Source: Escherichia coli
GTDB lineage: Bacteria > Pseudomonadota > Gammaproteobacteria > Enterobacterales > Enterobacteriaceae
Assembly (NCBI RefSeq): GCF_022846255.1
Contig: NZ_AP025682.1
Length of the DNA: 64,000 nucleotides
Direction: 5' to 3' (one strand)
Part shown: positions 6,054 to 9,000 of the stretch, piece after piece
Position numbering within the stretch: the first letter of the stretch is position 1
Layout of the letters: each line of letters starts with the position of its first letter
Program-made: the position numbers

Positions 6054-9000
6054 TAATGGCATTAACAATGCGAGCGTGCCTGATGCGCTACGCTTATCAG
6101 GCCTACGAGACTCCTGCAATATATTGAATTTGCATGTTTTTGTAGGCCGGATAAGGCGTTCACGCCGCATCCGGCAAGAAGCTATAAGAAAAGGGCGGAG
6201 ATCATCTCCGCCCTTTTTATTTCTGCAATCCGCAATTATCATCCCGCAGATCTATACTTTTTGGGTCAACACGTAACGCTTTACAGGTGATTATCATGGG
6301 GCTTTTTGATGAAGTTGTCGGTGCCTTTCTGAAAGGCGATGCGGGGAAATATCAGGCGATTTTGAGCTGGGTTGAGGAGCAGGGCGGCATTCAGGTGCTG
6401 CTGGAAAAACTGCAAAGTGGCGGTTTAGGTGCCATTCTCTCAACCTGGCTGAGTAATCAACAGGGCAACCAACCAGTTAGCGGCGAGCAACTGGAATCAG
6501 CGCTCGGCACAAATGCGGTGTCCGATCTCGGGCAAAAACTGGGCGTGGATACCAGTACAGCTTCCAGTTTACTGGCAGAACAATTGCCGAAGATTATTGA
6601 TGCACTCTCACCGCAAGGTGAAGTGTCAGCACAAGCCAATAACGATCTGCTTTCCGCAGGCATGGAACTGCTGAAAGGGAAACTCTTCCGCTAAGCAAAT
6701 GGGGAGCATGCAACCCGCATTGCATCCCCCTTTTCCCTCGGGTGTTGTACTGATTTTTGAGCGGAATCGCGTTAGCATGGGTCAGGAACCAATCTACCTG
6801 GGGAACTCATGGCTATCAAACTCATTGCTATCGATATGGATGGCACCCTTCTGCTGCCCGATCACACCATTTCACCCGCTGTTAAAAACGCGATTGCCGC
6901 AGCTCGCGCCCGTGGCGTGAATGTCGTGCTAACGACGGGCCGCCCGTATGCAGGTGTGCACAACTACCTGAAAGAGCTGCATATGGAACAGCCGGGCGAC
7001 TACTGCATTACTTATAACGGCGCGCTGGTACAGAAGGCCGCTGATGGTAGCACCGTGGCGCAAACCGCTCTCAGCTATGACGACTACCGTTTCCTGGAAA
7101 AACTCTCTCGCGAAGTCGGTTCTCATTTCCACGCCCTGGACCGCACCACGCTGTATACAGCCAATCGCGATATCAGCTACTACACGGTGCATGAATCCTT
7201 CGTTGCCACCATTCCACTGGTGTTCTGCGAAGCGGAGAAAATGGACCCCAATACCCAGTTCCTGAAAGTGATGATGATTGATGAACCCGCCATCCTCGAC
7301 CAGGCCATTGCGCGTATTCCGCAGGAAGTGAAAGAAAAATACACCGTGCTGAAAAGTGCGCCGTACTTCCTCGAAATCCTCGATAAACGCGTTAACAAAG
7401 GTACGGGTGTGAAATCACTGGCCGACGTGTTAGGTATTAAACCGGAAGAAATCATGGCGATTGGCGATCAGGAAAACGACATCGCAATGATTGAATACGC
7501 AGGTGTTGGTGTGGCAATGGATAACGCTATTCCTTCGGTGAAAGAAGTGGCGAACTTTGTCACCAAATCTAACCTTGAAGATGGCGTGGCATTTGCTATT
7601 GAGAAGTATGTGCTGAATTAATCAGTGAACGGGCAAACGGCATGAATGCGTTTGCCCGCAGCGATTAACAATTTCTGGTCGTGCATAAAATCAGGAACTG
7701 GAGTGGTGACGTTACTATATCCAGCGTAAGAGTGACTGGCAGCAGCGCATTAACGAGGCCGTGCGGGACGCCATCTGTTGCTTTGTACTCATAAAATCCC
7801 ACCGTAAAGGGTTGATGGAAAACCATCACGTTTGAGTAATCCGCTTTTTTATTTTTCTGGTGGATTGAGCCTTTCAAACCGTCCAGCATCCATGTACAAC
7901 GCCGGGTATCACAAATAAAACCATATTGTGTTGCCAGTGCCTTATCTTCTTCGTTGTTCCAGTCGTAATAGAGCGTAATAGCACCAGAGAAATTCTTATT
8001 ACTGCTGCTTAAAATAAATTTCGCGTTATCAGAAACGGTGATTCTTTCACCATGGATTGCCGGATCGTTCAGCATTTTAACCACCTCATCGCCGCCGGTG
8101 GTCAACAGATAGTCCAACGATTCACCAACAAAAACATAGCCTTTCGTACCGTTACTATCTTCTGCCAGCGATAAACCCTTAATCGTGTCTGACCGCCATT
8201 GCTCGGCATGTGGACGGCTTGCAGTATTGGAAACCAATCCCCAGGTGATACATCCGGTCAACGCAAATGCCAAAGAACACAAACCGGCAGCCTTAAAAAA
8301 TCCCTTAAAATTCAACTTCATGATTAATCCTTTAAACGAGTAGCTAAGCCGTTGAAAGCATACTCTTCTTTCCCTCCTGTTTAGCGCCTGATCTCCCTTT
8401 TCAGATTTTTGCCCGACGTAGAACATTTTCTTATGGATTGTTCTTTTTGTGATCTAAATTGTAGTACAACAATATAACTTTGTACTACATTAGACGCACA
8501 ACAAACGCGAACGTCATCACGCTGGTACTACAAAATTGCCGCGTTATGCATCGATCGGGGTAAAGTAGAGAAGAACATACAGAGCACAAGGACTCTCCAT
8601 GACTCTCAATAAAACCGATCGCATCGTTATTACGCTGGGTAAACAGATCGTTCACGGCAAATACGTGCCAGGCTCGCCGCTTCCGGCTGAGGCAGAACTC
8701 TGTGAAGAGTTTGCAACCTCGCGCAACATCATCCGTGAGGTATTTCGTTCGCTGATGGCGAAGCGGCTGATTGAAATGAAACGTTATCGCGGGGCGTTTG
8801 TGGCTCCGCGTAACCAGTGGAATTACCTCGACACTGACGTACTGCAATGGGTGCTGGAAAACGACTATGACCCACGGCTTATCAGTGCAATGAGCGAAGT
8901 GCGAAACCTGGTAGAGCCGGCGATTGCCCGTTGGGCAGCAGAACGCGCGACCTCCAGCGATCTGGCGCAGATTGAATCGGCGCTGAACGAGATGATTGCT

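What the first reader, a model, noticed from the sequence alone, without database searches (positions are those of the whole stretch)
8457..8536. Three copies of a TGTA(G/C)TACA motif upstream of dgoR
TGTAGTACA (8460..8468) and its exact reverse complement (8481..8489) form an inverted pair, with a third near-copy at 8524..8532, all inside the yidX-dgoR divergent region. This fits GntR-family operator architecture and probably represents multiple DgoR binding sites controlling the dgoRKADT operon.
Basis: partly seen in the sequence, partly recalled or inferred. Interest (0 to 1): 0.3.

Follow-up and report, generated by a model that had tools for sequence, protein, structure and literature searches.

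The report
Known DgoR operators plus third box
The first two motif copies are the published binding sites where the repressor DgoR shuts off the E. coli D-galactonate operon, so the finding is largely ordinary; the third copy is missing from the published two-site model but is conserved across about 76 of 78 enterobacterial species, so it is probably an extra, weaker DgoR site.

Summary
TGTAGTACA (8460-8468), TGTACTACA (8481-8489) and GGTACTACA (8524-8532) all lie in the yidX-dgoR intergenic region, upstream of the dgoR start codon at 8599.

Each box is its own palindrome, best written as the 11-mer TTGTA(G/C)TACAA. The "inverted pair" follows trivially from that palindromy and is not a functional unit.

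- **Boxes 1 and 2** (8459-8469 and 8480-8490, centres 21 bp apart) are the published DgoR operators IR1 and IR2. They overlap the CRP-dependent, galactonate-inducible promoter. This part is already known.
- **Box 3** (TGGTACTACAA, 8523-8533) appears in no two-IR description I could read. It is not a chance match:
  - It is one of only three matches with at most one mismatch in the 64 kb window.
  - It sits at the same place in 76 of 78 Enterobacterales species.
  - It is conserved like IR2 (pairwise identity 0.87, against 0.45 for the flanking spacers).
  - It is never a perfect consensus.

Box 3 lies about +31 from the upstream promoter and abuts the -35 region of the downstream basal promoter. 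I infer it is a weak auxiliary DgoR operator, most likely autoregulating basal dgoR transcription. DgoR binding to box 3 has not been shown.

Interest is low to moderate.

The parts
8445..8466 (+). CRP site for class II activation of the upstream promoter P1. The left half TGTGA is at 8448-8452; the right half overlaps box 1. It contains GATC at 8451-8454.
   Evidence: PMC6003448 reports a TGTGA logo at -160 to -140 from the ATG, with the right half where a -35 would be. TGTGA lies 11 bp before IR1 in 71 of 78 species. Information content is high across 8439-8458.
8459..8469 (.). Box 1 = published DgoR operator IR1, TTGTAGTACAA, a perfect palindrome. Its centre is about -33 from the inferred P1 start.
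   Evidence: It is identical to the core of the IR1 oligonucleotide in PMC11705089. It is a perfect match in 72 of 78 species, with mean pairwise identity 0.984.
8480..8490 (.). Box 2 = published DgoR operator IR2, TTGTACTACAT, with one mismatch at position 11. Its centre is 21 bp from IR1, about -12 from the P1 start.
   Evidence: 'IR2 has one mismatch' (PMC11705089). It lies inside the -140 to -110 repressor footprint. The 21-bp spacing holds at the species scanned. Mean pairwise identity is 0.910.
8486..8491 (+). -10 hexamer TACATT of the galactonate-inducible promoter P1. It is embedded in box 2, which explains the mismatch in IR2.
   Evidence: PMC6003448 names the wild-type -10 as TACATT, between -120 and -100. 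In the window it lies at -113 to -108.
8523..8533 (.). Box 3, TGGTACTACAA, with one mismatch at position 2. It is a candidate third, auxiliary DgoR operator. Its centre is 43 bp from IR2, about +31 from the inferred P1 start, and 33 bp upstream of the P2 -10.
   Evidence: It is one of only three matches with at most one mismatch in the window. It is present at the same place with at most two mismatches in 76 of 78 species, with G3, T4 and C9 invariant. Mean pairwise identity is 0.866, against 0.45 for the spacers and 0.587 for dgoR third codon positions. It is unchanged in the sampled E. coli genomes, while the 31-mer just upstream varies more. DgoR binding is inferred, not shown.
8536..8541 (+). 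Possible weak -35 (TTGCCG; TTGAGG in most genera) of the downstream basal promoter P2, with a 19-bp spacer.
   Evidence: It lies within the RNAP site reported at -70 to -30 from the ATG. It is partly conserved. My assignment of the hexamer is tentative, and the simple sigma-70 consensus scan called nothing here.
8559..8568 (+). Conserved block GGTAAAGTAG, containing a probable -10 hexamer TAAAGT (8561-8566) of promoter P2.
   Evidence: This is the block with the highest information content downstream of box 3. TAnAGT lies 33 bp from the box-3 centre in 75 of 77 species. It falls within the published RNAP site at -70 to -30.
8599..9288 (+). dgoR, the first gene of dgoRKADT. It encodes a 229-aa GntR/FadR-subfamily repressor.
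   Evidence: Pfam finds GntR (PF00392) plus FCD (PF07729). RefSeq annotates the orthologous position as dgoR. Downstream genes match the dgoA aldolase, dgoD galactonate dehydratase and dgoT transporter families; the ORF at the dgoK position had no NCBIfam match.

Best explanation
The region is the control region of the D-galactonate operon.

**Boxes 1 and 2 (shown in the literature).** These are the two established DgoR operators IR1 and IR2. Each is thought to bind one DgoR dimer, on the same DNA face 21 bp apart. They cover the right half of the CRP site and the -35 region (box 1) and the -10 hexamer TACATT (box 2) of the CRP-activated promoter P1. RNA polymerase is therefore excluded until D-galactonate releases DgoR.

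**Box 3 (inferred).** This is a third, deliberately imperfect DgoR operator.
- It lies in the transcribed leader of P1, at about +31.
- It sits 2 bp upstream of the -35-like element of the weak basal promoter P2, which supplies DgoR when P1 is shut.
- A DgoR dimer bound there most likely limits P2, giving negative autoregulation of the basal repressor supply. It may secondarily hinder transcripts from P1.
- Because box 3 would be weaker than IR1 and IR2, it would fill only after P1 is already repressed.
For: **IR1 and IR2**
- The sequence is identical to the published IR1 oligonucleotide, and 'IR2 has one mismatch'.
- The coordinates coincide with the Sort-Seq repressor footprint at -140 to -110. 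DgoR was affinity-purified from that footprint, and the footprint is lost in a dgoR deletion strain or in galactonate.
- A 55-nt probe carrying IR1 and IR2 binds DgoR and is released by D-galactonate.

**Box 3**
- It matches 10 of 11 positions of the operator consensus, as good as IR2. The mismatch is at position 2, which is K (G or T) in the FadR-subfamily TKGT/ACMA consensus. Position 2 also varies in IR2 orthologues.
- The same 11-mer, TGGTACTACAA, serves as IR2 in Affinibrenneria.
- About 0.0017 such matches are expected per intergenic region.
- It is found at the same position in 76 of 78 species, with dyad-symmetric conservation: T1, G3, T4, A5 and T7, C9, A10, A11.
- Pairwise identity is 0.866 (0.959 without positions 2, 6 and 8), against 0.45 in both flanking spacers and 0.587 at codon third positions.

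**Link to P2**
- The distance from box 3 to the -10 is 33 bp in 75 of 77 species. The distances from IR2 to box 3 and from the -10 to the ATG tolerate indels.
- A duplicated CRP-IR1-IR2 module in front of an MFS transporter gene in Pluralibacter gergoviae has no third box.
- DgoR is strongly autorepressed: it is undetectable in non-inducing medium.
Against: - No accessible paper reports DgoR binding at box 3, and every model drawn has two IRs.
- Sort-Seq text mentions a repressor-type signal only at -140 to -110. It finds P2 (-70 to -30) active in glucose with wild-type DgoR present.
- The Reg-Seq authors state they have reason to believe dgoR has no undiscovered sites.
- In most genera the right arm carries G or T at position 8, a position that never varies in IR1 or IR2. 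Binding there may be weak or limited to one half-site.
- The P1 start site and the P2 hexamers are my inferences from published footprint coordinates, not mapped 5' ends.
- The 78 species are related, so the counts are not independent events. The spacer and codon-position controls address this only in part.
- I could not read Singh et al. 2019, RegPrecise, EcoCyc or RegulonDB entries, any of which might already list or exclude the site.
Confidence: 0.55

Rival explanations
1. Box 3 is a real DgoR site, but its job is to tighten repression of P1 only. It would do this by cooperative contact or short-range looping with the dimers on IR1 and IR2, or as a roadblock at +31. It would have no role at P2.
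For: - Centre-to-centre distances of 21, 43 and 64 bp are close to 2, 4 and 6 helical turns, so all three boxes face the same side.
- The 43-bp distance is kept within 1 bp in 78 of 78 species, although the spacer sequence is unconserved.
- The related FadR-subfamily repressor LldR uses operators on both sides of its promoter with looping (PMC8689689).
Against: - DgoR is reported as a dimer, not a tetramer.
- Loops of 43-64 bp are energetically costly without a bending factor (general knowledge).
- When indels occur they fall between IR2 and box 3 (9 of 78 species), not between box 3 and the P2 -10 (2 of 77).
- The duplicated P1 module in Pluralibacter lacks a third box.
Confidence: 0.2
2. Box 3 is conserved for a reason other than DgoR. 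It could be part of the P2 promoter (a contact upstream of the -35, like an UP element) or the site of another factor, and only resembles the DgoR box.
For: - It abuts the published RNAP site at -70 to -30; its right arm lies at -70 to -66.
- It keeps a rigid 33-bp distance to the P2 -10.
- It is never a perfect DgoR consensus in 78 species.
- No repressor-type Sort-Seq signal is reported there.
Against: - Conservation spans 11 bp with dyad symmetry on exactly the DgoR half-site positions. That is much wider than a -35 hexamer and is not A/T-tract-like.
- Both mismatch classes keep one perfect half-site.
- The chance of a consensus match this good in this region is about 0.002.
- The -10 block survives in Affinibrenneria, where the box has decayed, so the two elements are separable.
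Confidence: 0.17
3. Box 3 is a chance near-match with no function, or the conserved leader blocks are RNA elements of the 5' UTR.
For: As a one-mismatch 9-mer, the third copy is no more frequent than chance across the window: 7 found against 6.07 expected.
Against: - Strong positional conservation across genera and within E. coli.
- No Rfam match at E-value up to 1.
- RNAalifold predicts no conserved pairs and no covariation in 12 leaders.
Confidence: 0.03

Closest known systems
E. coli K-12 dgo cis-acting element with DgoR operators IR1 and IR2 (Singh et al. 2019, as cited in PMC11705089 and PMC12288454; Sort-Seq dissection in PMC6003448)
   Same: It is the same locus and the same sequences. 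Boxes 1 and 2 are identical to those of a K-12-like genome. The CRP half-site, the -10 TACATT and the footprint coordinates are also the same.
   Different: The published model has two inverted repeats. Box 3, which is also identical in the K-12-like genome, is not part of that model in any text I could read.
LldR operators O1 and O2 at lldPRD (GntR/FadR subfamily)
   Same: A FadR-type repressor of an acid-catabolic operon encodes its own regulator in that operon. One operator lies upstream and one downstream of the core promoter, with angular phasing proposed to matter (PMC8689689).
   Different: The LldR operators bracket the promoter from about -80 to +1 and act by looping. Here two operators sit on the core promoter itself, and the third is only 43 bp further on. 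DgoR is reported as a dimer.
NanR on the (GGTATA)3 operator (GntR family)
   Same: Three repressor dimers bind one promoter of a sugar-acid operon (abstract of PMC8012715).
   Different: NanR binds contiguous direct hexamer repeats cooperatively. The dgo boxes are separate 11-bp palindromes at 21-bp and 43-bp spacing.
FadR as activator at fabA, and the lambda OR1-OR2-OR3 logic (from my own knowledge, not checked here)
   Same: A FadR-family dimer bound just upstream of a -35 can also activate transcription. A third, weaker operator at the regulator's own promoter can cap the regulator's concentration.
   Different: No evidence here shows DgoR activating anything or binding with graded affinities. 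These are functional analogies only.

Membership tests
DgoR operator (GntR/FadR-subfamily palindromic operator) | Palindrome with conserved TKGT / ACMA half-sites and 3 nt between GT and AC (PMC4494728) | tested here: met
   Box 1 is TTGT-AGT-ACAA, box 2 is TTGT-ACT-ACAT and box 3 is TGGT-ACT-ACAA.
DgoR operator (GntR/FadR-subfamily palindromic operator) | Lies in the control region of the dgo operon, next to a gene for a GntR + FCD regulator | tested here: met
   All three boxes lie 66-140 bp upstream of a 229-aa GntR + FCD ORF. That ORF is followed by an ORF at the dgoK position (no NCBIfam match) and by ORFs matching the dgoA, dgoD and dgoT families. RefSeq names the orthologous gene dgoR.
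DgoR operator (GntR/FadR-subfamily palindromic operator) | Conserved in orthologous promoters of other species | tested here: met
   Across 78 species, IR1 has at most one mismatch in 77, IR2 at most two in 78, and box 3 at most two in 76. Spacings are fixed and the flanking spacers are unconserved.
DgoR operator (GntR/FadR-subfamily palindromic operator) | Bound by purified DgoR and released by D-galactonate | not testable with these tools
   Published for a 55-nt probe carrying IR1 and IR2 and for a 250-bp fragment. No data specific to box 3 were found.
DgoR operator (GntR/FadR-subfamily palindromic operator) | Mutation of the site de-represses the promoter in a DgoR-dependent way | not testable with these tools
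   Reported for -140 to -110, which covers boxes 1 and 2. The accessible text reports no such signal at -76 to -66 (box 3). The figures and source data were not available to me.
Looping or auxiliary-operator repression (lac, gal, LldR type) | Operators in helical phase at a loopable distance, and a repressor that can bridge two sites (tetramer or dimer-dimer contact) | tested here: inconclusive
   The phasing criterion is met: 21, 43 and 64 bp. The distances are short for a loop, and DgoR is reported to be a dimer. Bridging cannot be tested here.

The most novel reading that the evidence does not exclude
Box 3 could be a functional third DgoR site through which DgoR acts positively on the basal promoter P2. 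Bound about 45 bp upstream of the P2 start, DgoR would resemble FadR at fabA. The same protein would then repress the inducible promoter P1 while sustaining its own basal synthesis.

This would make DgoR a dual regulator and the dgo control region a two-promoter, three-operator switch. It would also explain two things: why box 3 moves with P2 as a rigid unit, and why no repressor-type signal was reported there in Sort-Seq.
Probability: 0.08. Interest if true: 0.5.

Novelty: already known. Interest (0 to 1): 0.22.

Why it matters
DgoR is the best-studied sugar-acid regulator of the GntR/FadR family. It is also a recurrent target of selection when E. coli adapts to the gut. The two-operator core of this finding adds nothing new.

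The useful by-product is that the standard two-IR model is probably incomplete. A third DgoR-type box is as conserved as IR2 across Enterobacterales, sits next to the basal promoter, and is never a perfect consensus. If it binds DgoR, three things would follow:
- Quantitative models of dgo induction and autoregulation should include it.
- The in-vitro affinities measured on the 55-nt two-box probe should be re-read with it in mind.
- Sort-Seq energy models for this promoter should include it.

Tried and rejected
1. **The 'inverted pair' of boxes 1 and 2 as a functional unit.** Rejected: each box is its own palindrome, and the literature assigns one dimer per box.
2. **Chance origin of box 3.** Rejected by the 11-mer statistics and by conservation.
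3. **RNA element in the P1 leader.** Rfam gave no hit at E-value up to 1, and RNAalifold on 12 leaders predicted no pairs.
4. **Sigma-54 reading of TGGTAC...TTGC.** Checked by eye. The GG-to-GC distance is 14 rather than 12, and the GG is absent in most genera (TTGTAC). Rejected.
5. **Simple sigma-70 consensus scan of 8300-8650.** It called nothing. Both promoters are weak or activator-dependent, so their hexamers come from published footprints, not from the scan.
6. **Primary papers.** Singh et al. 2019, Arya et al. 2021 and the 2024 review are not held. The Belliveau supplement is not held either.
7. **Full-text search for the box sequences.** It returned only unrelated primer hits.
8. **Gut-evolution paper** (PMC9509342; PMC7064181 not opened), checked for operator mutations. 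The accessible text describes only dgoR coding-region and knockout mutations.
9. **The 'DgoR (right site)' of the Reg-Seq paper.** I could not resolve from the text which site this is; it is probably IR2.
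Full report
**Observation.** Reading 8200-8800 confirms TGTAGTACA at 8460-8468, TGTACTACA at 8481-8489 and GGTACTACA at 8524-8532. The ORF map places them between yidX (minus strand, real start ATG at 8321) and a 229-aa ORF starting at 8599. That ORF carries GntR and FCD domains. It is followed by an ORF at the dgoK position with no NCBIfam match (named by operon position only) and by ORFs matching the dgoA aldolase, dgoD galactonate dehydratase and dgoT transporter families. RefSeq annotates the orthologous positions in E. coli as yidX and dgoR.

The window comes from an Escherichia genome that is not K-12-like in this stretch:
- 99.3% identity to E. coli A25;
- about 96% identity to a K-12-like strain;
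- a DgoR protein 99% identical to that of E. whittamii.

**Is it more than chance?** The degenerate 9-mer has 2 exact matches in 64 kb against 0.17 expected. The third copy, as a one-mismatch 9-mer, is not remarkable by itself: 7 matches against 6.07 expected. The natural unit is longer. All three copies extend to the 11-mer TTGTASTACAA, with 0, 1 and 1 mismatches.
- The window contains only these three matches with at most one mismatch.
- In 477 kb of DNA flanking 78 orthologous loci there are 3 such matches, so about 0.0017 are expected in an intergenic region of this size.
- The repeat finder reports the same relations independently.

Each box is self-complementary around its central base.

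**What boxes 1 and 2 are.** They are the published DgoR operators.
- PMC11705089 gives the IR1 duplex as CTAAATTGTAGTACAACAATAT, which is window 8454-8475. It states that IR1 is perfect and IR2 has one mismatch, and that two DgoR dimers are thought to bind. The same model is repeated in 2025.
- The Sort-Seq study PMC6003448 found a repressor-type signal at -140 to -110 from the dgoR ATG, which is window 8459-8489. DgoR was affinity-purified on that DNA, and the signal was lost in a dgoR deletion strain and in D-galactonate.
- That study also names a non-optimal -10, TACATT (window 8486-8491, inside box 2). It reports a CRP half-site TGTGA at -160 to -140 (window 8448-8452) acting in class II fashion, and a second RNAP site at -70 to -30 (window 8529-8569).
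- A 55-nt probe with the two repeats binds DgoR with an apparent Kd of about 0.5 micromolar and is released by D-galactonate.

From a class II CRP centre at 8455.5 and the -10 position, I infer a P1 start near 8497. That puts box 1 at about -33, box 2 at about -12 and box 3 at about +31. This is an inference, not a mapped 5' end.

**What box 3 is.** No text I could read mentions a third site, and a full-text search for its sequence found nothing relevant. I therefore tested it by comparison. A scan of one genome per species returned 80 loci encoding DgoR at 79-99% identity, and 78 had enough upstream DNA.

Presence and spacing:
- IR1 is perfect in 72 species, and IR2 has one mismatch in 70.
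- A third box with at most two mismatches lies at the expected place in 76. Of these, 66 have exactly one mismatch and none is perfect.
- IR1 to IR2 is 21 bp at the species scanned. IR2 to box 3 is 43 bp in 69, 42 bp in 6 and 44 bp in 3.
- Box 3 to the downstream TAnAGT is 33 bp in 75 of 77, whereas the distance from that hexamer to the ATG ranges from 32 to 40 bp with two outliers at 45 and 57.

| Element | Mean pairwise identity |
|---|---|
| IR1 | 0.984 |
| IR2 | 0.910 |
| Box 3 | 0.866 (0.959 without positions 2, 6 and 8) |
| Spacers flanking the boxes | 0.46 and 0.45 |
| dgoR third codon positions | 0.587 |

Pattern within the box:
- Conservation is dyad-symmetric, with G3, T4 and C9 invariant in 78 of 78.
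- Position 2, where Escherichia has G, is K in the FadR-subfamily TKGT/ACMA consensus and also varies in IR2 orthologues.
- The exact 11-mer of the window's box 3 is used as IR2 in Affinibrenneria.

Within E. coli:
- A 31-mer around box 3 differs by at most one base in 4,723 of 5,021 genomes. The adjacent spacer 31-mer differs by two or more bases in nearly all.
- In the most divergent hit, all three differences fall outside the box.

Box 3 is therefore under purifying selection and has the shape of a DgoR site.

**How it most likely works.** For boxes 1 and 2 the mechanism is established. DgoR occludes the -35/CRP and -10 elements of P1, and D-galactonate releases it. For box 3 I infer a weak auxiliary operator.

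Its right arm ends 2 bp before a partly conserved TTGCCG/TTGAGG. It also keeps a rigid distance to the very conserved GGTAAAGTAG block (8559-8568). Together these match the published basal RNAP site at -70 to -30.

Three observations tie box 3 to P2 rather than to P1:
- Indels are tolerated between IR2 and box 3 but not between box 3 and the P2 -10.
- A duplicated CRP-IR1-IR2 module driving an MFS transporter gene in Pluralibacter gergoviae carries no third box, whereas that genome's dgoR-proximal region does.
- DgoR is tightly autorepressed.

A site that is always one step from consensus would fill after IR1 and IR2 and cap basal DgoR synthesis. That logic is an analogy from general knowledge, not something shown here.

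**Against this reading.**
- The Sort-Seq text reports no repressor signal at -76 to -66 and sees P2 active in glucose.
- The Reg-Seq authors consider the promoter fully mapped.
- In most genera, position 8 of the box departs from a base that is invariant in IR1 and IR2.

**Rivals.**
- *Pure P1 auxiliary operator (looping or roadblock).* Supported by the 2-, 4- and 6-turn phasing and by the LldR precedent. Weakened by the short distances, by dimeric DgoR and by the indel pattern.
- *Non-DgoR reading (part of P2, or another factor's site).* Supported by adjacency to the RNAP site and by the never-perfect consensus. It fits poorly with 11 bp of dyad-symmetric conservation on DgoR half-site positions.
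- *Chance or an RNA element.* Excluded.

**Comparison and novelty.** As a member of the class 'DgoR operators at the dgo promoter', the finding is already known for two of its three copies. Box 3 passes every sequence-level membership criterion, but it lacks the defining biochemical one, binding by DgoR, which cannot be tested here. It is best described as a well-supported candidate third operator that the current two-IR model omits.

Caveats:
- I could not read Singh et al. 2019 or query RegPrecise, EcoCyc or RegulonDB, which may already list the site.
- The species counts are phylogenetically non-independent.

**Verdict.** Interest is low for the known part, with a modest, testable addition.

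Noticed in passing
window 8451-8454: A GATC Dam site lies inside the CRP half-site TGTGATCT, 5 bp upstream of box 1, in a block conserved across the sampled species. Its adenine is at -147 from the dgoR ATG. That matches the single hemimethylated GATC (-147) reported at Salmonella dgoR, where expression is bistable and dependent on Dam and CRP (PMC7708049). A second GATC at 8553-8556 is not conserved outside Escherichia.
   Followed up: partly
window 8559-8568: The block GGTAAAGTAG is the most conserved element between box 3 and the Shine-Dalgarno sequence. TAnAGT lies at a fixed 33 bp from the box-3 centre in 75 of 77 species. It is probably the -10 of the basal promoter seen by Sort-Seq at -70 to -30, but no 5' end was available to confirm this.
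   Followed up: partly
window 8523-8533 and loci L001-L080: The third box is never a perfect consensus. 61 species have T at position 2 but G or T at position 8; 15 species have A at position 8 but A or G at position 2; none has both canonical bases. This could reflect selection for a sub-optimal site or a single clade-level switch; it is unresolved.
   Followed up: partly
L077 1231-1283 (Pluralibacter gergoviae): A second copy of the CRP half-site plus the IR1-IR2 module (TGTGATCTCGG-TTGTAGTGCAA-N10-TTGTACTACAT) lies 1.7 kb upstream of dgoR. It sits in front of a 436-aa MFS transporter ORF (1446-2756; Pfam MFS_1) and has no third box at +43. This looks like a DgoR-regulon expansion or a relocated dgoT.
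   Followed up: partly
L083 (E. coli 2018-05-2CC) compared with window 8437-13300: Roughly 400 of 5,426 complete E. coli genomes match only the yidX side of the query. In the example I inspected, the dgo promoter and the whole dgoRKADT operon are deleted, leaving yidX, a short pseudogene remnant and cbrA.
   Followed up: partly
window 9285-9288, 10147-10163, 10761-10764: The dgoR/dgoK, dgoK/dgoA and dgoA/dgoD reading frames overlap by 4, 17 and 4 bases. This is consistent with translational coupling within the operon. The longest dgoT ORF (from 11984) begins 45 bases upstream of the 12029 start used here, a start I chose by eye rather than confirmed.
   Followed up: no
window 8300-8700: This stretch is only about 94-97% identical to most E. 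coli genomes; just 5 records reach 99%. The DgoR protein is 99% identical to that of Escherichia whittamii. The window therefore comes from an atypical Escherichia lineage, yet all three boxes are identical to those of K-12.
   Followed up: partly
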